Shown here: positions 2,255-64,000 of the stretch, in pieces
Layout of the letters: each line of letters opens with the position of its first letter
How positions within the stretch are numbered: position 1 is the first letter of the stretch
From: a candidate division WOR-1 bacterium RIFOXYB2_FULL_45_9
Lineage (GTDB): Bacteria > Margulisbacteria > WOR-1 > O2-12-FULL-45-9 > XYB2-FULL-48-7
Direction of reading: 5' to 3'
Assembly: GCA_001771575.1 (NCBI GenBank)
Contig: MEUD01000001.1
Location: 1,575,470-1,639,469, forward strand
Length of the DNA: 64,000 nucleotides
Notes under the pieces: model-generated
What the model saw: only the letters and a program-made list of their open reading frames with translations
What the model was told of the DNA's origin: nothing
Databases searched by the model: none
Translations under genes and position numbers: made by a program

Positions 2255-2300
2255 ATTTCAAGCAACCAAATATAATAGAGGAATAAAATAAGGCTAGCAA

Positions 2301-24318: not shown

Positions 24319-24334
24319 TGAGAAAAAAATTATA

Positions 24335-36516: not shown

Positions 36517-36535
36517 TGAACGAAGGAGATATTTT

Positions 36536-46461: not shown

Positions 46462-47859
46462 CTATGGATGGCCGGACCCTTTGAAGCCGGATAAACTGAA
46501 AAAACTATAGTTATTGGTTATGTAATCTTCGATTAAATATAGCTTAAATCCTTTAAGTTCGGTGACTTTAGCAAATTCCCTGCTTGCCGCTTCCTTGAAC
46601 TCTTTGGTATCTTCTCCAAAATAGATGACCGTTTCCCCCTTTTTCAGGTCAGGTATTCCCCAAAGCTCATATTGTTTTTCCCCCCAGAGCGGTCCCGGCT
46701 TGAGGAATCCTGTCGCCATATAAGTTTGGCGCCCGGTGTAAAACTCAAGGAGGGAGGCGGAGACGTTGGTCCGGGCGAAGAGCTTGGTCTCTTTAGGGAG
46801 AAGGGTCGCCAATTCTTTGTTGCGGGCGTACTCTTTTTGATGAAGCAAGACCCCCGGAGAGACCAAGAGCAGGACCGCTAAGATCAGCGCGGTGAAAAGA
46901 GCGATCCAAAGAATGAACTTTTTTAGTGATTTGCCGTTTTCATCAAGATAGGCGACGGTCAGGGGGAGGGCGGCCAGGTACCCGATCGACGGCCAGTGGG
47001 CCCAAACCTTGACCTTGACCGAGAGGAGGAGGAATAGAAGGATGATCGGAAAAGAGAAAGAGAACAACAGCCTGGAGAGATCGTTCTTTTTTAATGAGTA
47101 GGCAAAGACCGGGACCAGCGCAAAGAGCAGGAAAGGGGTGAAGTGGACCAGCTGGTCGCCGATAAAAGGGAGGAGCCCGCTAAACCAGACGGAGGTCCCA
47201 ACCTTCGCGCCATGAAAAGAGAATGAGACCCAGTCCAGCCGGCTGTTCCAGACAAGGACCGGGGAGAAAAGGCCAAGGCTTAGTCCGAGGCAGAGGTAAG
47301 GTTGTTTTCTCTTTAGCCAGAAACGGTTGGCCGGAGAGACGATAAAGAAGAGCAGGAGGGCGGGCCAGAAAAGTATCATGGTATATTTGCTCAAAGTCCC
47401 CAGGCCAACGACAATCCCCAGCAGATACCAGTAATATTTTTGCTGGGTTTTGACGATCTTGACCATTAGCCAGACCGCCAGGGCCCAGAAAATGGCCAGC
47501 GGGAGCTCAACGAACTGGGTTAGCCAGATGACCAGATAATGAGGGAGAAGAAGAAAGAGGGCTGTAGACCAAAAAGCGACCCGCCGGTTAAACGCTTCCA
47601 GGGAGATGAAATAGATAAGCAAGGCGACTCCCAGACTGATGAGTGCGGCGCCGAGCCGCAGGGTCAGGAGGTTGGGCTGGCCAAAGGTCGTCAGATAATT
47701 GATCAGGGCGATCATCGGGGGATGGTCGACATATGATAGGTTAAGATGTCTTGCCCAGAGCCAGTAATATGATTCATCAGCGGTCAGGGGGAAGAGTATC
47801 CCCAGGGCGAGTCGAAAAAAAGTCGCGATGGTGATGAGAAGCAAGAGGTTGGTTGGCAT
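46462..47859 (-). CDS. ArnT/PMT-like (GT39/GT83, PMT_2) polytopic membrane glycosyltransferase, paralog 1
   Basis: Start set at MPTNLLL (47859). N-terminal loop DESYYWLWARHL…VDHPPM is the conserved DE-x-YY motif of polyprenyl-phosphate-sugar-dependent GT-C enzymes. More than 10 TM helices. C-terminal soluble domain WGIPDLKKGETVIYF. Confidence 0.75.
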   Translation of the reverse strand: MPTNLLLLITIATFFRLALGILFPLTADESYYWLWARHLNLSYVDHPPMIALINYLTTFGQPNLLTLRLGAALISLGVALLIYFISLEAFNRRVAFWSTALFLLLPHYLVIWLTQFVELPLAIFWALAVWLMVKIVKTQQKYYWYLLGIVVGLGTLSKYTMILFWPALLLFFIVSPANRFWLKRKQPYLCLGLSLGLFSPVLVWNSRLDWVSFSFHGAKVGTSVWFSGLLPFIGDQLVHFTPFLLFALVPVFAYSLKKNDLSRLLFSFSFPIILLFLLLSVKVKVWAHWPSIGYLAALPLTVAYLDENGKSLKKFILWIALFTALILAVLLLVSPGVLLHQKEYARNKELATLLPKETKLFARTNVSASLLEFYTGRQTYMATGFLKPGPLWGEKQYELWGIPDLKKGETVIYFGEDTKEFKEAASREFAKVTELKGFKLYLIEDYITNNYSFFSLSGFKGSGHP

Positions 47860-47872
47860 TAATTTATTATAG

Positions 47873-49159
47873 ATGATTTTTCCGGAAAAAACATTGAAAT
47901 TTACCGGTCGCCCGACAGATAAACATTTGATGTCAATTAGGCTTACGGACCAAACCAAACGGCCGGTGTTGCTCACCGCCGCGCAAACGCCGTTCATTAA
48001 CCGCGGCAAATATCAGGAAGTCTTGCGGCAATGTGGCCTCGATCGGGAAACCCCCTGGGGGATGACTTACGAAGTTTGCCGGCAGGAGAAGCTCAGCGGC
48101 TCGCTTACTCTGGCGGAAGAAATTCTTTGCCACCGCGGACGGCTTGACTGGGTTGAAGAATGTGAAGAAGGCTACCGCTTGCATGGGCCGCTTGCCATGG
48201 AGATGCGGGTGGAAACCTGCGCCGATGAGGCGACCCGCGACGAGGCGCGGCTGACTCTCCTTGCCGATTTCCGGCGGTTCGGCTATCAAACCGCCTTGCT
48301 GGCGATGGATCCGGCCGAGTATGACACGGTCAATCCCGGCTTTAACGATGAGGCGATCGCCAGGGGCCTTATGCCGCGCGATCTGCTGCTGATCAAAAGA
48401 GAACAGGAGTTGCCGGGTTCGATCGGCCTCTCGTTCCCGCGCGATCTTTTTACCCAGCTGGCGGAAACGGTTTATATCAATCCGGACGCCGGGGTTTTTG
48501 ATTGGCGGCCGTTATTTAATTGGGCAGGTGGCGGCTTGCGGCAGAATTACAGCCGAATTGGTTGCGGCGGTGAGGTCGTTATTGGTGATAAGTACGCCTT
48601 CCTGTCGGAGCAGTACATTCCCGACCTTTCTTTTCTCCCTCCGGAACAGCGGCTCATGCTGGAAATGGAATCGCGGCTTTTCAATATGGTGACGATCGGC
48701 GAAACGGAAGCGACCCTGCGAAGATTTGGGCGGCAAGTTTTCCGGGTCCCTTACGGTTGGACCGATATTTTTCCCCGCCAGCTGCTGGCCGAGCTTGGTA
48801 CTTCCAAACGGTTTTTGGTGCCGAACGACCACGCTGACATGAACCTGATGCACTTGCCGGACGAGAACGCCATTCTCACGGCGGAGCCGTATTATCTGGA
48901 GAACAGGGAATTGATCGATCGGCTTCTGGAAGAGGTCAAACCCGACCTGTTTCGCGTTTTACCGGAAGAGGACGGCCTGCCGGTCAATTTGCTCCCGCTA
49001 CCGGGCGGCGGGGTTTACCTCGATCAGGCGGCCGTTGCCGCGGCCCGGATCTTGCGGGCAGCGGGGATCAGGGTAGAAACAACTTCACGGCTATTTGGCA
49101 CCTTCCTCTGGGGCTCGCAGGGCGGGATACACTGCGCCACTAATACGCTTTGGTTATAA
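47873..49159 (+). CDS. hypothetical enzyme with amidinotransferase/agmatine-deiminase-superfamily-like C-terminus
   Basis: 428-aa ORF ending …LWGSQGGIHCATNTLWL. G-G-x-H-C-x-T at the extreme C-terminus is the catalytic-Cys signature of guanidino-group-modifying enzymes (agmatine deiminase, PAD). The rest of the fold was not verified. Confidence 0.45.
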   Translation: MIFPEKTLKFTGRPTDKHLMSIRLTDQTKRPVLLTAAQTPFINRGKYQEVLRQCGLDRETPWGMTYEVCRQEKLSGSLTLAEEILCHRGRLDWVEECEEGYRLHGPLAMEMRVETCADEATRDEARLTLLADFRRFGYQTALLAMDPAEYDTVNPGFNDEAIARGLMPRDLLLIKREQELPGSIGLSFPRDLFTQLAETVYINPDAGVFDWRPLFNWAGGGLRQNYSRIGCGGEVVIGDKYAFLSEQYIPDLSFLPPEQRLMLEMESRLFNMVTIGETEATLRRFGRQVFRVPYGWTDIFPRQLLAELGTSKRFLVPNDHADMNLMHLPDENAILTAEPYYLENRELIDRLLEEVKPDLFRVLPEEDGLPVNLLPLPGGGVYLDQAAVAAARILRAAGIRVETTSRLFGTFLWGSQGGIHCATNTLWL

Positions 49160-50765
49160 CCAGTTCGGAATAATTGTCCCGTGCCAGCACTTTTCCTCGG
49201 ATCTTCGCTTTTTCCCAGCTCTTAGTATCGCTTAGGACGACCGCTTTTTCTGTTTTTAAAAAATCTTTCAACTTGGCTTGGTCCCAGGCATAAAGGTCGG
49301 CTGGCCCGCTCATGAAGTCGACGTAAAAAAGGTCGGGACTATAAAAGAGCTGGCGGTCCGGCGGACGGTAGATAACCAGGGCGTAGCCCTGGCGGGTATA
49401 ATCATTGATCAAGGCCGGCCATTTGACGTCCGGATTGAACGAATTGACCAATGGGAGCGAAACGTAAAACAAGGCGTTGTAAGCCAACATAGTTAAAACG
49501 CAAAAAACGACAAGTTTATTCCAGGCCGGCCGGACCAGGTAAAAGAAAAGCCAACTCAAAGCGACGACAAATAGTCCGATCGGCAAAAGGGCGTCGCCAA
49601 GATAGATCCCATCGCCGTTATACGGTTTATTAAACAACGTAATAAATCCGACCGCAAAGATCAGCCAAAAGATGAGGTTCCAGAGTAATTCAATACGGAA
49701 ACCTGCGAATAAATCCGCCGCGGCGGACGGTTTCCGTATTTTCCATTGGATGGCGGTTAGTTTAAGCGCTGCTAAAATCGCCAGCGGTGGGACAAAGACG
49801 GTAAAGGTCCGCAGGTCGTTCTGGCGGTAGAAGAACAAGAGAAAGAGCAAATTTGACCAGAACCAGAGGTTGCAGAAGTGGTAGAGGCTAAGGCGGTGGG
49901 AGGGCTTCGGCAAGCTTATCGCCGTCATCGCGAGCGGCGCCCAGGGGAAAATGATGATCAAAAGGTAGCCGATGACTGACGTATAAAAACCAAAGCCGAG
50001 GTAGCTGGTATTGTATTTACTTTGAATGGTGATACTGCGCAGGTACGGCAGCCATTGATCGCCGAGCGGAATAATTTGGAGGGCCAGGACGCCGCCGATG
50101 AGCAGGAGAAGCAAGAAAGCGGTCAGGATTAGGTGGTAAGAGAAAACGAAACGAAAAAGCTTTGAGCGGGCCTCTTTGTTGAAAATCAAAAGAAAAATGA
50201 CTGTTAGCCCGGGGAGAAGGAGGCCAAAGCCGGATTTGACGAGAAAGCCGCAGGCCAGAGCGACGGTAAAAAGATAGATCGAGCTTGGGCGATCTTTCTT
50301 AATAAAATCATAAAGCGCCAGATGGGCCAGAGTGACAAAAAGCGGCAAGAGAATATCGAGCTTTGGCGCGCGCGAATAAGCGACCAATCCGAGACTGGTC
50401 CCGGCGATGATCGCGGCAAGGAGGGCGAGCCGCTGACCGCTTGCTCTCCTAATATAAAAATAGATCAAGGCCAGCAGGGCGGCAAAATAAAGGACATTGG
50501 CAAGGTGGACCGTTAGTTCGCTGACGCCGAATAGTTTCATCGGCCAGGCGAGAAGCCAGATCCCGAGCGGCGGTTTGTCGAGAAAAGAGGCGGGGTCGCC
50601 CGGTGAAATATATTGAGCCAGCCATTGATTGTGGACAACCGCGTTCTTGGCCGCCAGGGCGTAAAGAGAGGCGTCGTCGTTCTGCAACGGATTGCGCGGC
50701 AAGGTAGCGAAAGAGACCAGAATGAAAAGGCCGAGGCAAAGGGCAAGGACAAGGCGCAGGTTCAT
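49140..50765 (-). CDS. ArnT/PMT-like (GT39/GT83) membrane glycosyltransferase, paralog 2
   Basis: Polytopic. N-terminal loop DASLYALAAKN…PPLGIWLLA. Same architecture as the other paralogs. Confidence 0.7.
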   Translation of the reverse strand: MNLRLVLALCLGLFILVSFATLPRNPLQNDDASLYALAAKNAVVHNQWLAQYISPGDPASFLDKPPLGIWLLAWPMKLFGVSELTVHLANVLYFAALLALIYFYIRRASGQRLALLAAIIAGTSLGLVAYSRAPKLDILLPLFVTLAHLALYDFIKKDRPSSIYLFTVALACGFLVKSGFGLLLPGLTVIFLLIFNKEARSKLFRFVFSYHLILTAFLLLLLIGGVLALQIIPLGDQWLPYLRSITIQSKYNTSYLGFGFYTSVIGYLLIIIFPWAPLAMTAISLPKPSHRLSLYHFCNLWFWSNLLFLLFFYRQNDLRTFTVFVPPLAILAALKLTAIQWKIRKPSAAADLFAGFRIELLWNLIFWLIFAVGFITLFNKPYNGDGIYLGDALLPIGLFVVALSWLFFYLVRPAWNKLVVFCVLTMLAYNALFYVSLPLVNSFNPDVKWPALINDYTRQGYALVIYRPPDRQLFYSPDLFYVDFMSGPADLYAWDQAKLKDFLKTEKAVVLSDTKSWEKAKIRGKVLARDNYSELVITKAY

Positions 50766-52134
50766 GGAACAAGACCGCCTTTATAACCCTCGGCGTGAAA
50801 GATCTGGGTCAGTTTGGGGAGGTCGGCGTCTTTATTGAACAATCGCCGCTGTGGTTCGGTCCAGACCCGGCGAAAGAGGGGTTTGAGCTTGTCGGACAAC
50901 TCTTTTTCATTAATAGCGAAGTAGATGATATTGTCCCCCTTCTTTAGCTCCGGGATCCCCCACAGGTCAACTTGTTTGAGCCGTCCCGGCGCCATGTTGA
51001 CTCTGACCTGTCCATGGAAAGCGACCAGCCCGAGGATCCCCAGATCATTGGCAAAGTAATAGGTGCGACCGGTTTTTGGAGTGGTTTCTTTTAAATAAGT
51101 TGGCAGTTGGGAATTGATTGTAAACTCTCTTCCCCGCAGGTCGGCCGGAGTTGGATAAAAGAAAAGAAAATAGGAGAATCCACCGACGTTAAGGAGGAGG
51201 GCGAAGCCGATCAGGACACTGATTGCCCAGCGTTTCAGCTTGCCGCTGGCGGCGATCGCCGGGAAATAGGCGCAGGCCGGCCAATGTCCCCCGACGTTCA
51301 TGATCGGGCTGATGAGGGCGAAGGGGAGAAAGACCGCTCCGGCAAGTACGGCCAATAATTTGTTTTTCGCTTTAAAGATCAAATAGATCGTCCCAAAAAA
51401 GATGGGGGGGGTGTAGAGGAGTGTTTGCAGTCCGAAAAAATTAAGGAGGTTGTCGCCGATCCGTGGGCCGGCCCCCATTTTTCCGCCCCAATAGAAGAGG
51501 GGGGTAAAACCGAGACCAAAGTTCCAGACAATAACGGGGAGGAAAAGGCCGAGGCTAAGGCACAGGCCAAGGTAAGGTTCTATTCTTTTGAACCAGAAGC
51601 GTTGATCTTTTTCGATCGCGAAAAAAACGACGGTCGCGATGATAAAAAGAGCCATGACGTAGTCGCTTAGCAGGCCGAGGCCGACCGCCATCCCCAGATA
51701 GTACCAGTATTTGCCGTTGCCGCTCTTGATGAGCCTGACCAGCAGGTAAAAGCTCAACGACCAGAAAAGAAAGACCAGCATTTGCGGGACCAGAAACATC
51801 CCGCCGCCAAAAAAAGTCGGGATCAGATTGAAAAAGAGAGCGCTCTTGAGGGCGGTTTGCCGGTCAAAGAGCTCCCTGGCGGTCAGATAGACCAGATAAG
51901 TTACCATGAGGACGATCGTCAGCGCCGCCAGGCGGATCGCCAGTTCGCTGTTGCCAAAAAGGGTCGATAAGACCCGGTTGAGGTAAGCGATCATTGGAGG
52001 ATGGTCGACATAGCTAAAAGCAAGATGTTGTCCCCAAAGCCAGTAATAAGCTTCGTCCCCAATTAGCGGAAAGTACCTGATCATTCCGAGCTTGAGGAGT
52101 GTAATAGCGGCAATTAATAAAAGCGGCAAATTCA
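50762..52134 (-). CDS. ArnT/PMT-like (GT39/GT83) membrane glycosyltransferase, paralog 3
   Basis: Start set at MNLPLLLIA (52134). GDEAYYWLWGQHL…VDHPPMIAY motif. C-terminal WGIPELKKGDNIIYF as in paralog 1. The ORF-track 713-aa version carries a 256-aa spurious N-terminal extension antisense to the gene at 52154. Confidence 0.75.
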
Positions 52135-52153
52135 TGCTAAAATTATAACACAT

Positions 52154-57087: not shown

Positions 57088-58565
57088 TCTCGGGTCCTTT
57101 TCAGGAGAACGTATGAGCTTTTTTCGTCGACTACGGCAAAACGCTTGTCCGCTCTGATCTTATCGTAGAGCGGCGCGTACTCTTTTTTTGAGAGCGGTCC
57201 CGGCAGGGGAGTTTCTCCGACAAAAGTGTATTCCAGGAGCTTACCGTAGTTTTTCTTTTTAATGAGCTGGGTCAGGGCGGTCGTGTAATCCCCTTCGATC
57301 GGCCAGGTTGGATCGAGCTTGCAGAGGACAAGGTAGTCCGACTTTTCCCAATTCTTGGGGAAGAGCCAGATCTTTTCCCGGTGGGCCAAGTGGGGGTAGA
57401 GGCTTCCCAGCGCCGAAATTGCCGAGTCGGCGGGGATTTGCCGAAGCAGTCGGTGCCCCTCTTTGACCGGCTCGGTTATCACAGTGTAGCGGAAATAAAA
57501 GCCGGTGAAGAAATAAAGGGCTGAAAGGAACATAAAAAAGACGATGCTCTTTTTTATCCGGGCGAGCCTTCGGGTTTCTCCCGGTTGGACCGTGGCCAGG
57601 CCAAGAATGGCGGTCATAAAGACAAATGGGACGATTGACGCAGGGTAACGGGTGCCGAGCTGGTACATGTCCCGATAAGTGCTCAAGAGATTGATGGCGA
57701 AGATCGGCAGGGCCGGGACCAGCAGGGCGGGAGAGCGCCAGGAGAGAAAAGCGACCGGGAGAAAAAGCCCGATCATGAACCAGATCTTTTCGGGAGTTAG
57801 GATATAGCCTAAAACATAGAACGGCCTTGTAACTATGGTCCGCAAAATGGCGGGGATCGAATCGCCCAAATATGCGTAGCGCTCATAATACGCGTAACTG
57901 CCTCCGGTGTTAAAGTGTGGGATGATGACCGTGATCGCCAGGATAAAGAGGGCCAGGCCGCAAATAAAGAGCCCCCCGCCGAGAAGCTTTTCTTTCTTAA
58001 AACCGAGGATGTAAAGTCCGAAAAAGGCGGCGACCAGATAAATGTTCTCCTGGCAGAGCATGGCCAGCCCGAGAAAGAGAAGAAATAAAGGATAGCGATC
58101 CCTGATTAAATAATATACGGCAAAGAGGAGGGGGGTGATACAGAGAGCGATCGGGTAATATCCCTGGAAGGTGATATTGACCGTCGGCAAATAGAGCAGG
58201 TAAGCGAGAGGCAGGAGCCAGACAAAGGAGGAGTCGCCCAGGCTGTCGCGCGCCTGCCAATAAATCGGGAGGGCTCCCAGCCCGATCAACAGGGTCTGGC
58301 CGAAAAACAAAATGAACGGTCCGAGCCCCAGAAGATAGAACGGGATAAAAAGAAGGGTTGCCAGCTCCAGATGGTCGCCCAGGGTGGTGGAACCTTTAAT
58401 GTCGCTGTACATAAACTTTCCCTGAATGGTGTTATAGATCAAATTATCGTTGAATCCGTCGTCTAAGGCGTTATTGTTGAAAGTATAATGCTGCATCAGC
58501 CGAAAACCGGTAAAAAATATGGTAAAGAGAATGATGAACCAGATGATCCGCTCCCGGTATTTCAT
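57084..58565 (-). CDS. polytopic membrane protein, DUF2079-like (putative GT-C fold)
   Basis: 493 aa with at least 12 TM helices and a C-terminal soluble domain. Sits between GT9 and LpxB-like genes. Family name from memory, not verified. Confidence 0.45.
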   Translation of the reverse strand: MKYRERIIWFIILFTIFFTGFRLMQHYTFNNNALDDGFNDNLIYNTIQGKFMYSDIKGSTTLGDHLELATLLFIPFYLLGLGPFILFFGQTLLIGLGALPIYWQARDSLGDSSFVWLLPLAYLLYLPTVNITFQGYYPIALCITPLLFAVYYLIRDRYPLFLLFLGLAMLCQENIYLVAAFFGLYILGFKKEKLLGGGLFICGLALFILAITVIIPHFNTGGSYAYYERYAYLGDSIPAILRTIVTRPFYVLGYILTPEKIWFMIGLFLPVAFLSWRSPALLVPALPIFAINLLSTYRDMYQLGTRYPASIVPFVFMTAILGLATVQPGETRRLARIKKSIVFFMFLSALYFFTGFYFRYTVITEPVKEGHRLLRQIPADSAISALGSLYPHLAHREKIWLFPKNWEKSDYLVLCKLDPTWPIEGDYTTALTQLIKKKNYGKLLEYTFVGETPLPGPLSKKEYAPLYDKIRADKRFAVVDEKSSYVLLKRTRE

Positions 58566-59723
58566 CCGAGAGTTTCCAGGGCTAATTTAACGATCCGGTC
58601 CGTTCCCCCCCAGTCGGATTTGCTCGCCCGGCCGATCCGGGACATCTCCGACATCTTGGCTGGATCGCGCAGGATCTTCCAGATCGCCGCCGCCGTCTCT
58701 TCCGGTTTTCCGCTTAAGACCGCCATCGACTCTCCCGTGATCTTCCTAATCTCCTGCCAGCGGCGCGGAGTTGTCTGGGCGCCGCTACCGGGGAAGCAAA
58801 CGACCGGCTTGCCGAAGGCGACCGCCTGTTCGTTGGCGATCCCGGCCAAACCAATGATCAGGTCGGAGCGGACGCAGACGTCGCCGAACTTCCCTTCCGC
58901 CAGATAAACGGCGGTGCCGCGCGGCGAGACCAGCATTCCGGTAACCCCGCGCTTTAAGTCGGCCGGCAGGGTCTCGTACATCCGCCAGCCGATCTCGGTC
59001 ATTTTTTTTGCCAGGCGTTGCCGGTCAAGGGTCGAAGCGACCAACCCGACGAATTTCTCGTCTTTGTCGGATTGAGCCGCCATTTTTTCGATCACTTTAA
59101 GGATCAAGCCGAGGTTGTCAAAGGCCTCTTCCCGCGTGCCGGGGAGGATCCCGATCACGGTCTTGTTTTTTTCAATGCCAAAATCCTCGCCGGTCAGTGG
59201 GACGTAATCCATGACCCAGCTCCCCAGGTAGCGGGCGGGGAGTTTTTCTTTTTGGAGGTAGCTTGCCGTCTCCCGGTCCTGGACGACGATCTCGGAGCAG
59301 TAGCGGCGCATCAGCCACTTTTCAAGCGGCCAGTAGCCGGCGATTTTCACCGATTTTGGCCCGTCGATAAAGATCAGCGGTTTTTTAACGAAAAGGCCGC
59401 AAAGAGCGACGACAAACGCGTCGCCGACCGCGATCACCAGATCGGGCCGCTGGTTTTTTAAGATCGCGATCTGCCGCGCCAAGAGCGGGCCCCAGCCGGC
59501 CAATAGATCTTTGATAAAATGCGCCGGGCCTTCCTTGGCAAAGCCGCCGCTCGGGAGGAGTTTTTTCAGACCGAGGCTTGGGAGCCCTTTTCTCTCGTAA
59601 GCTTTTCCCAGACCGACCAGAGGAAAAGCGCTGATCTTGAGATCTGGACGGAGCGCTTTTAATCCGGCGCCGATCTCGGCCGCCGCCAGATCTTCGGCGT
59701 GGCCGTTGCTGACCAGCAATACC
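58562..59723 (-). CDS. lipid-A-disaccharide synthase-related (LpxB-like, TIGR03492-type) glycosyltransferase
   Basis: Start set at GTG 59723 (AAGGAG RBS 9 nt upstream), giving MSKRVLLVSNGHAEDL. The LVSNGHxED N-terminus is characteristic of the LpxB-related family. GT-B fold features follow. Confidence 0.6.
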
Positions 59724-59726
59724 CGC

Positions 59727-60578
59727 TTAGACACGGCGCGATTCTCCTTTGCAAAAGATCCGGAGGATCTCAATATATGCGGAGAGCTTTTCTTTGTTCT
59801 TCAGCCAGGGGTAGGCGAGAGCGGTGATCAATATCGCCGGGAGGAGGAGCAGGACGACCAGCCAGCGGTAAAGCTGGTAGGCGATCAAGCCGTAATGTTT
59901 TTTGCAGAAATAAAGGCCGCCGCGAAACCCTTCGATAAAAATCTCTTTTCTAAACAAATTAATGGTATAGCCGCCGAGATGGACAACTTCAGATTGAGGG
60001 ACAAAATAAATCTTCCACCCCGCTTTAACGATCCGGCGGGTGTAGTCGAGGTCGTCGTTGGAAAAGAAGAAATTCTCGTCGAGCAGGCCGACCTGGTCGA
60101 TCGTCGTTCGCCTGACCAGCAGGCAGGCGGCGATCAGGTAATTGACCGTGACCGGTTTGGGGGAGAGCCAAAAGCGGCGGGCAAAAATCCCTCCCTGATG
60201 CTGGACGGTCCCGTCCGGGTTGAGGAGCTTTGGCCCGCAGGCTCCCGCGCCCGGGTGGGCGTCCATGAACTCAACGAGCCGGTCGAGCGCTTTTTCCTTG
60301 ACGATCGTGTCGTTGTTGAGGAGGAGGGCGTAGCGTCCGTGATAGACCTTGAGCCCCTGGTTGTTCGCTTTGCAGAAGCCTAAGTTTTCTTCGTTTTCCA
60401 AAATGGTAACCCTGGGGAATTGCTCTTTGACCAGGCGGAGGGAGTTGTCGCTGGAGTGGTTGTCGACCAAAATAATTTCAAACGAGATCTTGCCGGTCGA
60501 ATTATAGATCGAGCGGAGGCAATCTCCCAAAAGCTTTTCGCCGTTATAATTAACGATAATAATGGAAAGATCGATCAT
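59727..60578 (-). CDS. family 2 glycosyltransferase
   Basis: LSIIIVNYNGEKLLGDCLRSI…VDNHSSDNS…LLNNDT. GT-A DXD architecture with a C-terminal TM region. Confidence 0.8.
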   Translation of the reverse strand: MIDLSIIIVNYNGEKLLGDCLRSIYNSTGKISFEIILVDNHSSDNSLRLVKEQFPRVTILENEENLGFCKANNQGLKVYHGRYALLLNNDTIVKEKALDRLVEFMDAHPGAGACGPKLLNPDGTVQHQGGIFARRFWLSPKPVTVNYLIAACLLVRRTTIDQVGLLDENFFFSNDDLDYTRRIVKAGWKIYFVPQSEVVHLGGYTINLFRKEIFIEGFRGGLYFCKKHYGLIAYQLYRWLVVLLLLPAILITALAYPWLKNKEKLSAYIEILRIFCKGESRRV

Positions 60579-60579
60579 T

Positions 60580-61302
60580 TTACTTATTGAGCCGGAGGGC
60601 TTTGCCGAGCTTATAGAAGTTTAAGGCGAGAAGGTGCTGGATATATTGGATAGTTTCGCGGCTCCCCATTTTGCTCTCTCCCGCCGCCCGTTCGGCAAAG
60701 ACGATCGGGTATTCAGCCACTTTTCCCTGGTGGTTCCCTTTGACCATCAGCTCTAATCCGACCTTACAGCCGATCGGACTGATCCTGGTCCCCTCCAGGA
60801 TCTTTTTATCGAACATAAAAAAGCCGGAGGTCAGGTCGCTTACCGGGGTCAGCATCCGGCCGAGCATCCGTGCCCCCCAGGAAAAGAACTTCCGGTACCA
60901 GATCCAGTCGGAGGTCCCGCCGCCGCTGACGTGGCGGCTGCCGATGACCAAATTGGCTTTGCCGCTCTTGATCATTTTGAACATTTCGGGGAGGACTTCC
61001 GGCGGATGGCTCAGGTCGCCGTCCATAATACAGACGATAGGAGCTTCGGCCAGGCGGATGCCGTCCATGATCGCCGGTCCCGGACCGAGCCGCTGTTTCC
61101 TGACGTAGACCCGGATCGGGTATTTGGCTGACAGTTCCGCGGCCAGATCGGCGGTCCCGTCGGGGGAGGAGTCGTCGATCACCAGGATCTCCCCGTGGAT
61201 CCAGCCGCTTTTGAGCGCGGCAAAGACCCGCTCCGCCATGGCGCCGATGTTCTTGGCTTCGTTATAGGTTGGGATTGAAATCGTTAATTCTGGTTTTGAC
61301 AT
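60580..61302 (-). CDS. polyprenyl-phosphate glycosyltransferase (ArnC / dolichyl-phosphate mannose synthase-like, GT2)
   Basis: LTISIPTYNEAKNI…VIDDSSPDGT…MDGDLSHPP…VIGSRH are the DPM1/ArnC family blocks. Confidence 0.85.
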   Translation of the reverse strand: MSKPELTISIPTYNEAKNIGAMAERVFAALKSGWIHGEILVIDDSSPDGTADLAAELSAKYPIRVYVRKQRLGPGPAIMDGIRLAEAPIVCIMDGDLSHPPEVLPEMFKMIKSGKANLVIGSRHVSGGGTSDWIWYRKFFSWGARMLGRMLTPVSDLTSGFFMFDKKILEGTRISPIGCKVGLELMVKGNHQGKVAEYPIVFAERAAGESKMGSRETIQYIQHLLALNFYKLGKALRLNK

Positions 61303-62927
61303 TGCAGGACCAAAAGATCTCCTTTTATCCCTAATATTTTAACATATTCGGGGAGGTTAAAACGGATCTTTTCGTATTCGGCCATCGAGAGAAAAAGATA
61401 TCCCTGGCGGCCGTTGATGAATTCCCAGACCTCGGTCTTGTTATTTAGAAAAGCGACCGTCCGCGGGCTGTAGAAAACGATCCCGGGGCGGTTGCCGGTC
61501 CCGAAGGCGGCGATTTTTTGGCCCGGTTGAAAATTACGGTCGATCTCTTTGCCGAGCGGCTTAGCCCCTTTGAACTCCTCGACCCGGGGGAGGACCATCA
61601 GGGTCAGGATGAACATAATGGCAAAGACCATGGCGGCCAGAACGTAGACCGACAGGCGCTTTTTCCCGGCAAAATAGATAACGACCGCCAGAAAACTGGT
61701 CCCCGTCAGGACCGCCGTGAGGAGATAAAGCAGGGGGAGAAAGCTTTTGTACTGCTCCGGATAGTTGATGTTCCCCGCCATGACGAACCCGGCGATCAGC
61801 ATCAAAACTACGACAAAAAGCAGGAGGTAGGAGACGATCATCCCGATCTTCATCGATTCGGCCTCTTTGAGCGAATCGTCAAATAGTTTGCCGACCATCA
61901 GCCCCAAAAACGGGTAGAGGGGGAGAATATAGGTCGGGAGCTTGGTTGTGGCGGCGGAAAAGACGATAAAGGTCGGGACGATAAGGCTAAGGCAGAGGAG
62001 GGACGAATCGCTCCGCCAGTTCCGCGCGGTCCGCCAAAAGGCGTAGGGGAGAAAAGGGGACCAGGGGGCAAAGCCCAGGATAATGGCGAGAAAATAATAA
62101 TACCAGGGCCCGGTGTGGCCGGCGACCACTCCCTGAAAACGGGAGAGAAAGAGGAAGCCGACGGTAAAATCGAGAAATGGCTTGCCGTGGCGGAAGAGCT
62201 CAATGGCGTACCAGGGGAGCCCGATCAAGGCGAAGATCAGGAGACCGGCCGGGAGCTTTAGCTCCTTGACCTTCGCGAGTTCCTTTTTCATCAGGAGGAA
62301 CAAAAAGATCGTGCCGGCCGGCAGAGCGATCCCCAGCGCTCCTTTGATCAAAAAGGCGAGGGCCATGGGAAAATAGCTTAATGTGAACCACCATTTCTTA
62401 TGGCTGGAATAGCCGGCGTAAAAACAATACAAGGCTAAAGTGACGAAAAACGTTAAGACGACGTCAAGTTCGGCGATCCGGGACAGGACCATAAATTGAA
62501 AGGCGGTCATGGTGACCAGCCCGGCGAAAAAACCGGCCCGCTCACTGCTGAAGAGCTTGCGGCCAAAAAGATAAGTGACGGCGACGGTCGTAAGGCCGCA
62601 GGCCGCGGCCGGCAGGCGCATGGCCCATTCGTTAAAGCCGATGCTCCTGGAGAGAAGGGCGACAGACCAATAATAAAGTGGGGGCTTGTCGAAGATGATC
62701 GCGCCGTTAAAACGCAGGGTCAGGTAGTCGCCATAGCGGAGCATATTCTTGACGAACTCGCCGTAAGTCGTCTCCGCCGCGTCGTAGAGAGAGAAACTCC
62801 CGAGCTTAAAGAAGAAGAGGATCGCCGCCAGGAGCATTAAGTAGAATAGATATGATTTTTTGACGCTGGAACTTGAGACCGAAGCTTCGGCCCCAGCTTT
62901 GGCAATGGGATTATTAGTATTACTCAT
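61284..62927 (-). CDS. ArnT/PMT-like (GT39/GT83) membrane glycosyltransferase, paralog 4
   Basis: DAAETTYGEFVKNM…FDKPPLYYW motif region. More than 12 TM helices. C-terminal soluble domain. Confidence 0.75.
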   Translation of the reverse strand: MSNTNNPIAKAGAEASVSSSSVKKSYLFYLMLLAAILFFFKLGSFSLYDAAETTYGEFVKNMLRYGDYLTLRFNGAIIFDKPPLYYWSVALLSRSIGFNEWAMRLPAAACGLTTVAVTYLFGRKLFSSERAGFFAGLVTMTAFQFMVLSRIAELDVVLTFFVTLALYCFYAGYSSHKKWWFTLSYFPMALAFLIKGALGIALPAGTIFLFLLMKKELAKVKELKLPAGLLIFALIGLPWYAIELFRHGKPFLDFTVGFLFLSRFQGVVAGHTGPWYYYFLAIILGFAPWSPFLPYAFWRTARNWRSDSSLLCLSLIVPTFIVFSAATTKLPTYILPLYPFLGLMVGKLFDDSLKEAESMKIGMIVSYLLLFVVVLMLIAGFVMAGNINYPEQYKSFLPLLYLLTAVLTGTSFLAVVIYFAGKKRLSVYVLAAMVFAIMFILTLMVLPRVEEFKGAKPLGKEIDRNFQPGQKIAAFGTGNRPGIVFYSPRTVAFLNNKTEVWEFINGRQGYLFLSMAEYEKIRFNLPEYVKILGIKGDLLVLQCQNQN

Positions 62928-62946
62928 TATAATTTCTCCTTCTTAC

Positions 62947-62977
62947 GGAAACCTGCGGCAATATCGCCGCGGTTTCC
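62947..62977. repeat. 31-nt REP-like palindromic repeat, copy 3 (reverse orientation; GGAAACCTGCGGCAATATCGCCGCGGTTTCC)
   Basis: Its reverse complement, GGAAACCGCGGCGATATTGCCGCAGGTTTCC, differs from copy 2 at 2 of 31 positions. Intergenic between lpxL-like and ArnT paralog 4. Confidence 0.65.
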
Positions 62978-63063
62978 TAGCAGCCGTATTCTTTTACCCC
63001 GTCTTTTTTTTGCCTTCTATCCTGCCATTTGCTTTGCCCGAGCCTTCTGTCCTGCCTTCTTTT

Positions 63064-63924
63064 CTATCTATGCGCCAACCCGTGGATCTCGTCCTTAAAA
63101 AGAAATATCCCCCACTGTTCGGGGTGGTTTTTGATAAAAGGCTCGAAGTAGTTTTTGATCCGTTCCATCATTTCCGGTTTGTTCTCCCGGTCGATCTGGA
63201 AAGGGGGCTGGAAGTTAATGACCACTTTTTTCCCCACCCGGCGGGCGAGGCACATGACAATCTCGGCGCGCGAGCGCTGGGCCAGGGTCAGCCAGCCGGT
63301 CGCGACCGGCAGATCGCGGCCCAAAAAACGGATCTCTTCGTGCCGCCCTTCGTTGGCGCCGGTATCCAGCAGGAGGCCGATGATCTGGTTGTCGGAGAGG
63401 CTTTTGATCGATTCCAGGTACATGTTGCTGTCCAGGACGTTGATCAGTTTGGTCCCGTGAGCAGTCCGCGCCTGGTTGATGATCTTAAAAAGCGGGTCGT
63501 CGGGCGCTTTGACGATCGAGGTGACCCGGTAGCCCCGGCTCGAGAGAAAGGCGGGGACGATCTCGTAGTTGCCGGTATGCATGGTCAGGAAAAGGCCGCC
63601 GTTCCTTTTGGCGAGCGCCAGGTCGATATTTTCCAACCCCTCGACCTTGATCACCCGGTTAAAGTGCTCTTCCCTGAAGTAGGGGAGGCAAAGGAGCTCA
63701 AAGATCGAATAGCTGATGTTGCGGAGGAGAAAGTCGGCCTTTGGCCGGCCGCTGGTCCCGGGAAAGAACATTTCAAAGTTGCGGGCGACCGTTTTCTTGA
63801 TCGGGGTCAAACGCACGACCTGGTAGACCGCTTCGGCGGCAAAGCGCATCAGGTAGATCGCCATCGGCGCCGGGAGCAAAAAGATCAGGCGCAGTTTTAG
63901 CCGGAGTAATTTTAGTAAGATCAT
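63064..63924 (-). CDS. lipid A biosynthesis late acyltransferase (LpxL/HtrB-like, LPLAT superfamily)
   Basis: N-terminal TM anchor and the acyltransferase HX4D/E box (MHTGNYE). 286 aa. Start ATG overlaps the stop of the upstream partial ABC exporter gene (ATGA). Confidence 0.75.
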   Translation of the reverse strand: MILLKLLRLKLRLIFLLPAPMAIYLMRFAAEAVYQVVRLTPIKKTVARNFEMFFPGTSGRPKADFLLRNISYSIFELLCLPYFREEHFNRVIKVEGLENIDLALAKRNGGLFLTMHTGNYEIVPAFLSSRGYRVTSIVKAPDDPLFKIINQARTAHGTKLINVLDSNMYLESIKSLSDNQIIGLLLDTGANEGRHEEIRFLGRDLPVATGWLTLAQRSRAEIVMCLARRVGKKVVINFQPPFQIDRENKPEMMERIKNYFEPFIKNHPEQWGIFLFKDEIHGLAHR

Positions 63925-64000
63925 GCCTTATTTTTTAGTTGGATCTCGCTCAAGTACTGGTAGAGTCCCCCCCTGGCCAGGAGCTCCTGATGGGTGCCGA
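63921..64000 (-). CDS. C-terminus of an ABC exporter ATP-binding/permease protein (MsbA-like), partial at window edge
   Basis: Reverse strand reads …GTHQELLARGGLYQYLSEIQLKNKA*, the typical extreme C-terminus of MsbA-type ABC exporters. Only 26 codons are visible. Confidence 0.45.
   Translation of the reverse strand, partial: GTHQELLARGGLYQYLSEIQLKNKA

What the first reader, a model, noticed from the sequence alone, without database searches (positions are those of the whole stretch)
46462..63924. Envelope glycosylation super-cluster: four tandem ArnT/PMT-like GT-C paralogs with an ArnC-like donor synthase, three GT9 heptosyltransferase-like genes, an LpxB-like gene, an LpxL-like gene and a partial MsbA-like gene
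Seen in sequence: four polytopic proteins with the DE-x-YY N-terminal loop motif (46462..47859, 49140..50765, 50762..52134, 61284..62927). Two of them share a C-terminal soluble domain (WGIP[DE]LKKG[ED]x[VI]IYF).

Also present: a DPM1/ArnC-type polyprenyl-phosphate sugar synthase (60580..61302), two or three GT2 genes, three GT9 genes, a DUF2079-like 12-TM protein, an LpxB-related gene (LVSNGHAED), an LpxL-like late acyltransferase gene and a partial MsbA-like exporter C-terminus.

Established knowledge: ArnC makes a lipid-linked sugar that ArnT/PMT-family enzymes transfer in the periplasm onto lipid A or proteins.

Inference: paralog expansion suggests several distinct acceptors or sugars, i.e. 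an elaborate periplasmic lipid A/LPS-core (or protein O-) glycosylation pathway. Two genes nested among the ArnT paralogs, a SAM methyltransferase and an amidinotransferase-superfamily-like gene (47873..49159), may tailor the transferred group.
Basis: partly seen in the sequence, partly recalled or inferred. Interest (0 to 1): 0.5.

Follow-up and report, generated by a model that had tools for sequence, protein, structure and literature searches.

The report
Conserved Saganbacteria LPS glycosylation gene cluster
This is a real gene cluster, conserved across its phylum, that most likely builds and sugar-decorates the outer-membrane lipopolysaccharide of an uncultivated groundwater bacterium (candidate division WOR-1/Saganbacteria); its parts are ordinary known enzyme families, apart from one orphan enzyme that sits in it by accident.

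Summary
There are four PMT_2 (ArnT-fold GT-C) membrane proteins, three GT2, three GT9, DUF2079, a TIGR03492 LpxB-related gene, an LpxL-like gene and the last 25 codons of an MsbA-like exporter.

Corrections:
- The four GT-C proteins are ancient relatives in two groups, {A,C} and {B,D}, not recent tandem copies. Only C, B and A are adjacent.
- The DE-x-YY motif is found only in A and C.
- The "ArnC-like" gene is a tail-less dolichol/polyprenol-phosphate-mannose synthase (E 1e-52 to P. furiosus DPMS, against 7e-11 to ArnC).

The sequence matches public candidate division WOR-1 (Saganbacteria) groundwater MAGs. The order lpxB-like, msbA, lpxL, GT-C(D), DPM synthase, (GT2), LpxB-related … GT9 is conserved in three relatives with D orthologs at 48-56% identity. 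The GT2/GT9 pair with the C-B-A array is conserved in three.

Best reading: an LPS locus with a polyprenyl-phosphate-hexose (probably mannose) periplasmic decoration branch, analogous to Rhizobium Rgt and Francisella FlmF1/FlmK.

The methyltransferase and the "amidinotransferase-like" gene are absent from every syntenic relative, so they are incidental cargo. The latter is a rare, unannotated branch of the guanidino-modifying (pentein) superfamily.

Verdict: a new member of a known kind, of modest interest.

The parts
45608..46417 (-). SAM-dependent methyltransferase (269 aa). An accessory gene, not part of the conserved cluster.
   Evidence: Methyltransf_11, E 4.8e-13. No tblastn match in L011-L015.
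46462..47859 (-). PMT2_A: ArnT-fold GT-C glycosyltransferase (465 aa) with a C-terminal alpha/beta periplasmic domain (about residues 359-459).
   Evidence: PMT_2, 98.9 bits. AF2 pLDDT 91.2. Best Foldseek match is ArnT 5f15, E 8e-9, TM 0.67. Family-invariant D28 E29 Y31 Y32 H46 P47 P48 R68. Orthologs at about 62% identity lie in the same position in L014 and L015.
47894..49159 (+). Orphan, probably soluble enzyme of the guanidino-group-modifying (pentein/amidinotransferase) superfamily. 421 aa by the public gene call; homologues suggest the start may be M at 47930. Accessory insertion.
49140..50765 (-). PMT2_B: GT-C glycosyltransferase (541 aa, at least 11 hydrophobic segments). Full-length remote homologue of D.
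   Evidence: PMT_2, 75.7 bits. hhalign against the D family: 99.6%, E 2.5e-24, 469 columns. Orthologs at 48-67% identity in L012, L014 and L015.
50762..52153 (-). PMT2_C: GT-C glycosyltransferase (463 aa). Paralog of A with the same C-terminal domain.
   Evidence: PMT_2, 120.8 bits. 35% identity to A over 455 aa, E 3e-72. Orthologs at 55-65% identity in L012, L014 and L015.
52154..52966 (+). GT2-like glycosyltransferase (270 aa), divergent from PMT2_C with 0-18 nt between the start codons.
   Evidence: Glycos_transf_2, 31.9 bits. 69-84% identical orthologs in L011, L012, L014 and L015 in the same arrangement.
52960..53964 (+). GT9_a: GT9 (heptosyltransferase-family) glycosyltransferase, 334 aa.
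   Evidence: Glyco_transf_9, 36.6 bits. All heptosyltransferase equivalog models score below cutoff. 62-65% identical orthologs.
53961..55466 (-). GT9_b: GT9 glycosyltransferase, 501 aa, with an unannotated C-terminal extension of about 140 aa.
   Evidence: Glyco_transf_9, 98.9 bits at residues 81-318. The C-terminal 142 aa have no Pfam hit.
55450..57087 (-). GT9_c: GT9 glycosyltransferase, 545 aa, with about 105 N-terminal residues carrying 2-3 hydrophobic helices and a C-terminal extension of about 110 aa.
   Evidence: Glyco_transf_9, 91.9 bits at residues 174-400. Hydrophobic segments at 27-45 and 68-86. 29% identity to GT9_b.
57084..58565 (-). DUF2079 polytopic membrane protein (493 aa). 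Possibly a fifth GT-C-type transferase.
   Evidence: PF09852, E 5.5e-66. At least 8 hydrophobic segments. Orthologs at 62-64% identity in L012 and L014. The assignment of DUF2079 to the GT-C clan is from my own knowledge and was not tested here.
58562..59734 (-). LpxB-related GT-B protein (TIGR03492 family), 390 aa.
   Evidence: TIGR03492, 240 bits against a cutoff of 219.2; true lpxB model only 17 bits. Fused to the upstream GT2 as a 658-aa protein in L012.
59727..60578 (-). GT2 glycosyltransferase (283 aa) with one C-terminal hydrophobic helix.
   Evidence: Glycos_transf_2, 87.3 bits. Best NCBIfam model is rhamnosyltransferase-like, below cutoff.
60580..61302 (-). Polyprenyl-phosphate hexose synthase, DPM1/Ppm1 type (240 aa, catalytic domain only, no membrane tail).
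   Evidence: P. furiosus DPM synthase 5MLZ: E 1.1e-52, 182 bits, residues 6-227, with DGD aligned to the DAD motif. ArnC structures reach only E 7e-11. The ArnC model NF007986 scores 46 bits against a cutoff of 529.
61284..62927 (-). PMT2_D: ArnT-like GT-C glycosyltransferase (547 aa) inside the lipid A operon. Its 3' end overlaps the start of the synthase gene by 19 nt.
   Evidence: PMT at 76.8 bits and PMT_2 at 83.5 bits. ArnT 5EZM, E 5e-33. ArnT model NF009784 scores 148.7 bits against a cutoff of 567. Family-invariant D49 E52 D80 K81 P82 R104 D155 K195 H271 Y333.
63064..63924 (-). LpxL-like lipid A late acyltransferase (286 aa).
   Evidence: PF03279, 94 bits. All equivalog models score below cutoff. 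Its ATG overlaps the msbA-like stop codon (ATGA at 63924-63921).
63921..64000 (-). 3' end (25 codons plus stop) of an MsbA-like ABC exporter gene that continues beyond the window.
   Evidence: Translation. The full 573-aa protein on L008 has ABC_membrane and ABC_tran domains, and its best model is TIGR02203 MsbA_lipidA (543 bits, cutoff 602).

Best explanation
The region is most of a roughly 20-kb lipopolysaccharide (lipid A plus core) assembly locus that is conserved in Saganbacteria/Margulisbacteria.

A tightly packed minus-strand operon runs from an lpxB-like gene outside the window through msbA-like, lpxL-like, GT-C 'D', DPM-type synthase, GT2, LpxB-related, DUF2079 and GT9_c to GT9_b.

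Inferred mechanism:
1. On the cytoplasmic face, the three GT9, two GT2 and the LpxB-related GT-B enzymes extend lipid A with core sugars from nucleotide sugars. The LpxL-like enzyme adds a late acyl chain and the MsbA-like exporter flips the product.
2. In parallel, the soluble DPM1/Ppm1-type synthase loads a hexose, most likely mannose from GDP-mannose, onto polyprenyl phosphate.
3. After flipping, this lipid-linked sugar is the donor for ArnT-fold GT-C transferases on the periplasmic face. D acts on lipid A or inner core. C, B, A and perhaps DUF2079 act on further acceptor positions.

One donor synthase serving several GT-C transferases is the logic of the Rhizobium Rgt system and of Francisella FlmF1/FlmK.

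Shown here: family and fold assignments, gene order, operon packing and conservation. Inferred: the sugar identity, the acceptors and the sidedness of each step.

The methyltransferase and the pentein-like gene are lineage-specific insertions, not pathway members.
For: - Family assignments.
- ArnT-like fold or sequence. Common ancestry of the four GT-C proteins.
- The synthase matches DPMS far better than ArnC or GtrB (1e-52 against 7e-11 and 2e-9).
- Genes from msbA to GT9_b overlap or abut: 4-, 19-, 8-, 4-, 4- and 17-nt overlaps and a 1-nt gap, from the coordinates. The only larger gap is 136 nt, between lpxL and D.
- lpxB-like, msbA, lpxL, D and the synthase are adjacent in L008 (identical sequence) and in relatives with D orthologs at 48-56% identity: L011, L012, L013.
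- DUF2079, the GT9 genes, the divergent GT2/GT9 pair and the C-B-A array recur in L012, L014 and L015.
- A and D orthologs share contigs in at least 10 cases, judged by matching contig lengths.
- Gene fusions link partners: LpxL+D as an 835-aa protein in one Saganbacteria MAG, and GT2+LpxB-related as a 658-aa protein in L012.
- An outer-membrane beta-barrel gene in the window supports a diderm envelope.
- Precedents: mannose on Francisella lipid A needs flmF1 and flmK (PMC2233673). RgtA/B add GalA to Kdo (PMC4402001). RgtD/F add sugars to lipid A (PMC9393093).
Against: - No biochemical data exist for this lineage.
- Every LPS-specific equivalog model scores below its cutoff: ArnT 149/567, heptosyltransferases at most 113/170, LpxL 50/298, MsbA 543/602, and the upstream 'LpxB' only 31/190. 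Only TIGR03492 passes.
- Nothing here shows that A, B or C act on LPS rather than on proteins or another envelope polymer.
- No Kdo, heptose or GDP-mannose supply genes were seen in the window.
- D lacks the two zinc-binding histidines of C. metallidurans ArnT in the alignment; which residues those are comes from my memory of the structure paper.
- The LpxL+D fusion occurs in one MAG, where a single-base error at the 4-nt overlap could create it.
Confidence: 0.65

Rival explanations
1. Only D, with the synthase, serves LPS. The C-B-A array, and perhaps DUF2079, are polyprenyl-phosphate-mannose-dependent transferases for other acceptors, such as periplasmic or surface proteins (bacterial Pmt-like O-mannosylation), pili or S-layer, or a non-LPS glycolipid. 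They sit next to the LPS operon only because envelope genes tend to cluster.
For: - A/C are only remotely related to D (hhalign E 1.6e-14 over the membrane core only).
- A/C have their own C-terminal domain.
- The array is transcribed separately from the lpx operon.
- In more distant relatives (L013) the lpx core occurs without the array within 10 kb.
- PMT_2 is a broad family covering varied acceptors.
Against: - No MIR or PMT_4TMC domain was found.
- The bacterial Pmt model NF058602 matched only D, at 33 bits against a cutoff of 800; it did not match A, B or C.
- The best structural match of A is ArnT, well ahead of Pmt4, Pmt1 and Pmt2.
- The array is flanked by GT9 and GT2 core-type genes in L012, L014 and L015.
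Confidence: 0.25
2. The D and synthase pair is an Arn-type (ArnT/ArnC) aminoarabinose or other cationic-sugar lipid A modification system that confers resistance to cationic peptides.
For: D's best solved homologue is ArnT and its best NCBIfam model is the Ara4N transferase. JGI names its orthologs 'Ara4N transferase-like'.
Against: - 148.7 bits against a cutoff of 567 for ArnT, and 46 against 529 for ArnC.
- The synthase is DPMS-type and lacks the ArnC/GtrB membrane tail.
- No ArnA/ArnB/ArnD families (formyltransferase/decarboxylase, aminotransferase, deformylase) and no LgmC-type deacetylase family appeared among the Pfam/NCBIfam matches to the cluster genes, nor in the precomputed Pfam lists of the relatives' loci.
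- The pair sits in a constitutive lpx operon rather than in a regulated island.
Confidence: 0.05
3. The methyltransferase and the pentein-like enzyme are functional parts of the pathway that modify the transferred sugar or its acceptor.
For: Physical nesting between and beside the GT-C genes in this genome.
Against: - Absent from all syntenic relatives.
- The same slot is empty in one relative and holds an unrelated gene in another.
- Homologues of the pentein-like gene lie in housekeeping contexts.
- Neither protein has a strongly hydrophobic segment.
- The pentein-like gene is on the opposite strand.
Confidence: 0.05

Closest known systems
Rhizobium leguminosarum Rgt system (RgtE polyprenyl-phosphate-GalA synthase with the ArnT-like transferases RgtA, B, C, D and F)
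   Same: One polyprenyl-phosphate-sugar synthase serves several ArnT-fold GT-C paralogs, which decorate different positions of LPS core and lipid A on the periplasmic face (PMC4402001; PMC9393093 and the references it cites). UniRef labels A, B and D 'RgtA/B/C/D-like domain' proteins.
   Different: - The synthase here is DPM1/Ppm1-type and tail-less, suggesting mannose rather than GalA.
- The GT-C proteins are very divergent: two ancient groups, none tested for orthology to Rgt proteins.
- D and the synthase are embedded in the lpxB-msbA-lpxL operon.
- No LpxE/LpxF-type phosphatase gene was seen in the cluster.
Francisella novicida FlmF1/FlmF2/FlmK lipid A glycosylation
   Same: A polyprenyl-phosphate hexose synthase homologue (flmF1) plus an ArnT homologue (flmK) are required for mannose on lipid A (PMC2233673). 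This is the closest precedent for a hexose/mannose lipid A modification.
   Different: Francisella uses one GT-C for two sugars; here one synthase accompanies four or five GT-C proteins. No sequence orthology was tested, and the lineage and operon context differ.
ArnT/ArnC aminoarabinose pathway (E. coli, Salmonella, C. metallidurans ArnT structure 5EZM/5F15)
   Same: The fold of A, and the sequence of D over the membrane core. The DKPP loop, an aspartate aligned with the LD of ArnT, and the KLPxY tyrosine are conserved.
   Different: Scores are far below the equivalog cutoffs. No ArnA/B/D/E/F. The donor synthase belongs to a different GT2 subfamily. The zinc-site histidines are not conserved.
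Actinobacterial Ppm1-dependent GT-C mannosyltransferases (Pmt, PimE, Mpt enzymes)
   Same: A membrane-tail-less DPM1-type polyprenyl-phosphate-mannose synthase feeds multiple GT-C mannosyltransferases (from my own knowledge). PimE and Pmt structures appear among the weaker structural matches of A.
   Different: The acceptors there are proteins and PIM/LM/LAM in a mycolate envelope. Here the context is lipid A genes in a diderm relative of Cyanobacteria.
Guanidino-group-modifying (pentein) superfamily: agmatine deiminase, PAD, arginine deiminase, DDAH, amidinotransferases (for ORF 47894-49159 only)
   Different: - No Pfam, NCBIfam or PDB sequence match.
- A very small family: 19 representatives at E<1e-30 among 1.84e9.
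- An extra N-terminal region of about 100 residues.
- Substrate unknown.

Membership tests
PMT_2 / ArnT-fold GT-C glycosyltransferases (PF13231) | Score above the Pfam gathering threshold (26.1 bits) | tested here: met
   A 98.9, B 75.7, C 120.8 and D 83.5 bits.
PMT_2 / ArnT-fold GT-C glycosyltransferases (PF13231) | Polytopic GT-C fold with an acidic motif in the first periplasmic loop | tested here: met
   The model of A (pLDDT 91) matches ArnT, then AglB/PglB/STT3, ALG12/ALG9, Pmt4 and Emb. Invariant D28-E29 in A/C, D30-D31 in B and D49..E52 in D. 7-11 strongly hydrophobic segments in each. B, C and D were not modelled.
ArnT, lipid IV(A) 4-amino-4-deoxy-L-arabinosyltransferase (NF009784) | Equivalog score of at least 567 bits | tested here: not met
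   D 148.7 bits, C 28.4 bits, A and B no hit.
ArnT, lipid IV(A) 4-amino-4-deoxy-L-arabinosyltransferase (NF009784) | Co-occurrence with the Ara4N donor pathway (ArnA, ArnB, ArnC, ArnD) | tested here: not met
   None of these families appeared among the Pfam/NCBIfam matches to the cluster genes, or in the precomputed Pfam lists for the relatives' loci. The rest of the genome was not examined.
Protein O-mannosyltransferase (GT39; PF02366 with MIR and PMT_4TMC; bacterial Pmt NF058602) | PMT N-terminal domain together with a MIR loop domain and the C-terminal 4TMC module, or an equivalog score of at least 800 bits | tested here: not met
   PF02366 is hit by D (76.8 bits) and A (33 bits), but there is no MIR or PMT_4TMC hit in any of the four. 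NF058602 scores 33 bits for D only.
Dolichol/polyprenol-phosphate mannose synthase (DPM1/Ppm1/DPMS type GT2) | GT2 catalytic domain closely similar to a characterised DPMS, with the DxD metal site | tested here: met
   5MLZ: E 1.1e-52, 182 bits over residues 6-227. DGD aligns with DAD.
Dolichol/polyprenol-phosphate mannose synthase (DPM1/Ppm1/DPMS type GT2) | GDP-mannose to polyprenyl-phosphate transfer activity | not testable with these tools
   Requires an enzyme assay.
ArnC (NF007986) / GtrB-type polyprenyl-phosphate glycosyltransferase | Equivalog score of at least 529 bits, and two C-terminal transmembrane helices | tested here: not met
   46 bits. No hydrophobic segment in the 240 aa.
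GT9 (PF01075) LPS heptosyltransferase family | Pfam score above the gathering threshold (22 bits) | tested here: met
   36.6, 98.9 and 91.9 bits.
GT9 (PF01075) LPS heptosyltransferase family | Equivalog to heptosyltransferase I, II or III (cutoffs 185, 135 and 170 bits) | tested here: not met
   Best scores are 113 (III), 91 (II) and 90 (II) bits. The sugar specificity is therefore open.
TIGR03492 lipid-A-disaccharide synthase-related protein | Score of at least 219.2 bits | tested here: met
   240 bits over the full length. The true lpxB model scores only 17 bits.
LpxL/LpxM late acyltransferases | PF03279 above threshold; TIGR02207 subfamily score of at least 297.8 bits | tested here: inconclusive
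   PF03279 scores 94 bits (met). TIGR02207 scores 50 bits and the best equivalog 69/248 (not met).
MsbA lipid A flippase (TIGR02203) | Score of at least 602 bits | tested here: inconclusive
   The full-length protein on L008 scores 543 bits. MsbA is the top-ranked model but falls just below its cutoff. Only 25 codons lie inside the window.
Guanidino-group-modifying enzyme (pentein) superfamily (ORF 47894-49159) | Pentein fold | tested here: met
Guanidino-group-modifying enzyme (pentein) superfamily (ORF 47894-49159) | Catalytic Asp, His and Cys (C-terminal nucleophile Cys) | tested here: met
   Invariant FPRD, DHxD and GGIxCxTN in close homologues. R183, D184, H313 and C414 are near-invariant and D315 is invariant across 45 distant members.
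Guanidino-group-modifying enzyme (pentein) superfamily (ORF 47894-49159) | Match to a curated family model (PAD_porph, ADI, Amidinotransf, DDAH) | tested here: not met
   No hit for the window protein. Among the distant relatives, 9 of 45 weakly hit ADI and 9 of 45 weakly hit DDAH_eukar, with a best E of 3e-4.

The most novel reading that the evidence does not exclude
In Saganbacteria/Margulisbacteria, the sister lineages of Cyanobacteria, periplasmic glycosylation of lipid A from a polyprenyl-phosphate-mannose donor may be a hard-wired, constitutive step of lipid A biogenesis rather than a regulated stress modification. The GT-C enzyme D and its donor synthase are co-transcribed and translationally coupled with lpxL and msbA, and in one lineage D is fused to LpxL. 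Three further GT-C enzymes and DUF2079 would then build much of the LPS core on the periplasmic side. This would be a largely periplasmic mode of core assembly, unlike the cytoplasmic Waa paradigm. Separately, ORF 47894-49159 would found a new pentein family with an unknown guanidino substrate.
Probability: 0.3. Interest if true: 0.5.

Novelty: new member of a known kind. Interest (0 to 1): 0.3.

Why it matters
Nothing is known experimentally about the outer membrane of Saganbacteria or Margulisbacteria, the non-photosynthetic sisters of Cyanobacteria. Literature searches found no paper describing their LPS genes.

The locus gives a concrete, conserved gene set for predicting their LPS chemistry: hexose/mannose-decorated lipid A and core, GT9 enzymes that are not equivalogs of the heptosyltransferases, and a TIGR03492 GT-B enzyme of unknown role.

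It also offers a compact pair, the synthase plus D, that could be tested in E. coli.

For a specialist it is an expected variation on the Arn/Rgt/Flm theme, so the value is mainly annotational. The orphan pentein-like enzyme is a small independent lead.

Tried and rejected
- PDB sequence searches with A, B, the A/C profile, the LpxB-related protein, the pentein-like ORF and its profile found nothing meaningful. The only 'hits' of the A/C profile were Strep-tag/TEV expression-tag sequences that resemble WGIPELKKGE..YF, which is an artefact.
- Pfam and NCBIfam found nothing for the C-terminal domains of A, B, D, GT9_b and GT9_c, for the GT9-associated small protein beyond DUF4254, or for the 547-aa protein upstream of the lpxB-like gene.
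- The 319-aa gene that occupies the B-A slot in L014 is not a diverged pentein homologue (E 0.27).
- The promoter scan was no better than shuffled sequence: 13 found against 9.9±3.2 expected. The terminator-like hits lie mostly inside genes, so operon boundaries rest on gene spacing only.
- No tRNA genes and no Rfam family in the window.
- Literature: no paper on Saganbacteria or Margulisbacteria LPS, and none mentioning DUF2079. Brown et al. 2012 on rgtA-E is not held, so Rgt is cited through reviews.
- The Arn-type aminoarabinose reading was considered and rejected (see rival explanations).

Full report
**Source and setting**

Exact-sequence look-ups place the window on JGI groundwater metagenome contigs of 110-130 kb. 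Identical proteins occur in NCBI MAGs named candidate division WOR-1 bacterium RIFOXYA12_FULL_52_29 and siblings (OGC12335-OGC12354), on contigs up to 1.67 Mb. WOR-1 is now called Saganbacteria, and the nearest homologues are all labelled Saganbacteria, Margulisbacteria or Margulisiibacteriota.

The first 45 kb of the window carry housekeeping genes:
- thiC, thiL, folC, mreBC, a xerD-like gene, an M20 peptidase, NUDIX, thiGH, hisS and the AmmeMemoRadiSam radical-SAM gene;
- an RmlC gene, another GT2 and an outer-membrane beta-barrel gene.

The organism is therefore a diderm. No tRNA or Rfam element is present.

**Checking the observation**

The 76 bases after the lpxL-like gene encode a typical ABC-ATPase C-terminus. 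On longer copies of the contig this is the end of a 573-aa protein whose top model is MsbA_lipidA. That protein is preceded by a weak LpxB-like GT-B gene and a 547-aa protein with no family.

Gene spacing shows one compact minus-strand operon from msbA to GT9_b:
- The ATGA overlap at 63924-63921 joins the msbA stop to the lpxL start.
- Further overlaps of 19, 8, 4, 4 and 17 nt and a 1-nt gap follow.
- The only larger gap is 136 nt, between lpxL and D.

GT2(52154)/GT9_a are transcribed the other way and converge on GT9_b. PMT2_C and PMT2_B form a second minus-strand pair whose start is 0-18 nt from the GT2 start codon. PMT2_A and the methyltransferase form a third pair.

**How the four GT-C proteins are related**

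| Comparison | Result |
|---|---|
| A vs C (BLASTP) | 35% identity over full length, E 3e-72 |
| B vs D (BLASTP) | 28% identity over about 200 N-terminal residues, E 7e-13 |
| Other pairs (BLASTP) | marginal |
| B vs D family (hhalign) | 99.6%, E 2.5e-24, 469 columns including the C-terminal domain |
| A/C vs D (hhalign) | 98.3%, E 1.6e-14, membrane core only |
| B vs A/C (hhalign) | 96.9%, E 1.6e-10 |

They are one superfamily split into two old groups, not a recent expansion.

D is the only one with a solved sequence homologue: C. metallidurans ArnT, E 5e-33. In the D family D49, E52, D80-K81-P82, R104, D155, K195, H271 and Y333 are invariant. In the ArnT alignment, DKPP matches EKPP, D155 matches the LD aspartate, and Y333 matches the KLPxY tyrosine. 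The two histidines that I recall as the ArnT zinc site are not conserved.

A has no PDB sequence hit, even with a profile. A 28-sequence alignment nevertheless gave a confident AlphaFold model (pLDDT 91.2). Its best Foldseek match is ArnT (5f15, E 8e-9, TM 0.67), followed by AglB/PglB/STT3, ALG12/ALG9, Pmt4 and Emb. Residues 359-459 form a separate alpha/beta domain that carries the WGIP[DE]LKKG motif shared with C.

The strict DE-x-YY motif is limited to A and C.

**The donor synthase**

The 240-aa GT2 at 60580-61302 aligns with Pyrococcus furiosus dolichol-monophosphate-mannose synthase over residues 6-227 at E 1.1e-52, with DGD aligned on the DAD metal site. ArnC structures reach only E 7e-11 and GtrB 2e-9. 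The ArnC equivalog model gives 46 bits against a cutoff of 529.

The protein has no hydrophobic tail. From my own knowledge, this resembles eukaryotic DPM1 and mycobacterial Ppm1. It is best called a DPM1/Ppm1-type polyprenyl-phosphate hexose synthase. Mannose is the most probable sugar (my estimate is 0.5-0.6) but is unproven.

**Conservation in relatives**

- Orthologs of D at 48-56% identity in three long contigs (L011, L012, L013) are each preceded by lpxB-like, msbA and lpxL. Each is followed by the 229-238-aa synthase, then an LpxB-related gene of about 360-380 aa or a GT2+LpxB-related fusion, then GT9 genes.
- L012, L014 and L015 also carry the divergent GT2/GT9_a pair (64-84% identity) followed by PMT2_C and PMT2_B. 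L014 and L015 continue with PMT2_A and then the same rSAM and hisS genes as in the window. The fetched stretch of L012 ends inside the B ortholog.
- DUF2079 recurs in L012 and L014.
- Two fusions link neighbours. The 658-aa protein in L012 is GT2(59727)+LpxB-related. The 835-aa protein P0175 in a Saganbacteria MAG is LpxL (42% identity) + D (51%). This second fusion could be an assembly indel at the 4-nt overlap.

It does co-occur, so that test is not met, even though the synthase is DPM-like.

**The two 'nested' genes**

The methyltransferase and ORF 47894-49159 have no counterpart in any syntenic cluster. In L015, B and A abut directly. In L014 the slot holds an unrelated 319-aa gene.

The ORF has no Pfam, NCBIfam or PDB sequence match. 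It has only seven homologues among 5.8 billion proteins. A profile search of 1.84 billion representatives gave 85 hits at E<1e-3, of which 19 were below 1e-30.

Its homologues in Margulisbacteria lie next to alaS-ruvX-yceG and guaA, or next to leuA.

Evidence that it belongs to the pentein superfamily:
- Close homologues keep FPRD, DHxD and GGIxCxTN invariant.
- Across 45 distant members, the R-D of a WxRD motif, HxD and the C-terminal Cys are nearly invariant.
- Nine of the 45 weakly hit the ADI model and nine the DDAH_eukar model, while every other family is hit by only one member.

The gene is a rare, unannotated and probably cytoplasmic pentein enzyme that landed in a variable slot of the cluster. 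Nothing ties it to the glycosylation pathway.

**Mechanism and comparison with known systems**

The evidence fits an LPS locus with two arms.

- *Cytoplasmic arm.* Three GT9, two conventional GT2 and the TIGR03492 GT-B enzyme, together with the LpxL-like and MsbA-like proteins. The GT9 proteins all score below the heptosyltransferase equivalog cutoffs. Two of them carry unannotated C-terminal extensions, and one also has a hydrophobic N-terminal extension. Their sugar is therefore open.
- *Periplasmic arm.* The DPM-type synthase supplies a polyprenyl-phosphate hexose to ArnT-fold transferases.

This is the logic of the Rhizobium Rgt system and of Francisella, where mannose on lipid A requires flmF1 and flmK (PMC2233673; PMC4402001; PMC9393093).

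D's position and coupling point to lipid A or inner core as its acceptor. The acceptors of A, B, C and DUF2079 are inferred only from neighbourhood, and a protein or other envelope acceptor remains a live rival (0.25). An Arn-type aminoarabinose system is rejected.

**Verdict**

The cluster is a conserved, lineage-typical LPS glycosylation locus assembled from known enzyme kinds. It lies in a public genome where the genes are annotated only generically. It is a new member of a known kind, with interest about 0.3.

The most novel reading that the evidence allows is constitutive, operon-embedded, polyprenyl-phosphate-mannose-dependent lipid A glycosylation with largely periplasmic core assembly in the sister phyla of Cyanobacteria. 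I give that about 0.3 probability.

Noticed in passing
window 52135-52154; L012 19420-19435, L014 5953-5970, L015 6953-6970: The start codons of PMT2_C (minus strand) and the GT2 gene (plus strand) lie back to back, 0-18 nt apart. In three relatives the spacing is 14-16 nt. Both promoters must therefore lie inside the neighbour's coding sequence. A -35/-10-like site with an extended TG sits at 52114-52143, but the scan as a whole was no better than chance.
   Followed up: partly
window 53961-54420 (C-terminal part of GT9_b) and 55450-55790 (C-terminal part of GT9_c); also the GT9 genes of 469-478 aa in L011, L012, L013 and L015: The long GT9 proteins of this lineage carry a C-terminal extension of about 110-140 aa with no Pfam match. 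In relatives the long GT9 gene is preceded by a 151-aa DUF4254 gene, which the window lacks. GT9_c also has a hydrophobic N-terminal extension of about 105 aa, which is unusual for GT9.
   Followed up: partly
L008 5472-7115 and 7253-8296 (just beyond the window's right end): The operon continues upstream with a 547-aa protein that has no Pfam or NCBIfam match, and a 347-364-aa GT-B protein that resembles LpxB only weakly (31 bits against a cutoff of 190). The locus therefore holds two divergent LpxB-like proteins, and it is unclear which of them, if either, is the real disaccharide synthase.
   Followed up: partly
L016 8001-10508 (GCA_016219705.1, Saganbacteria MAG): An 835-aa gene fuses LpxL-like and PMT2_D-like domains. 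Downstream of it lie a DUF5678 gene and a serine recombinase instead of the synthase. The fusion could be genuine or could be an indel at the 4-nt stop/start overlap.
   Followed up: partly
window 1607-3104 (GC about 0.40) and 28364-28870 (GC about 0.43): Two low-GC islets lie in a window that is otherwise 52-55% GC. One encodes a DUF4145-domain protein plus an unannotated neighbour. The other encodes an ORF6N-domain protein next to prmC and prfA. They may be small mobile or defence-related insertions.
   Followed up: no
window 35521-38770: Two adjacent or overlapping large ORFs (331 aa and 783 aa) have no Pfam match. By eye the second looks like a secreted or surface protein.
   Followed up: no
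window 21068-22357: A 429-aa Ala/Pro/Gln-rich protein has a sub-threshold match to the FliK hook-length-control domain (20 bits against a cutoff of 29.8). No other flagellar gene is nearby.
   Followed up: no
window 23767-24357 and 31189-32019: A dTDP-4-dehydrorhamnose 3,5-epimerase gene (RmlC, E 2e-69) and a further GT2 gene lie 15-22 kb upstream of the cluster. Rhamnose may therefore be one of the envelope sugars; the best NCBIfam model for GT2 59727-60578 was also rhamnosyltransferase-like.
   Followed up: no
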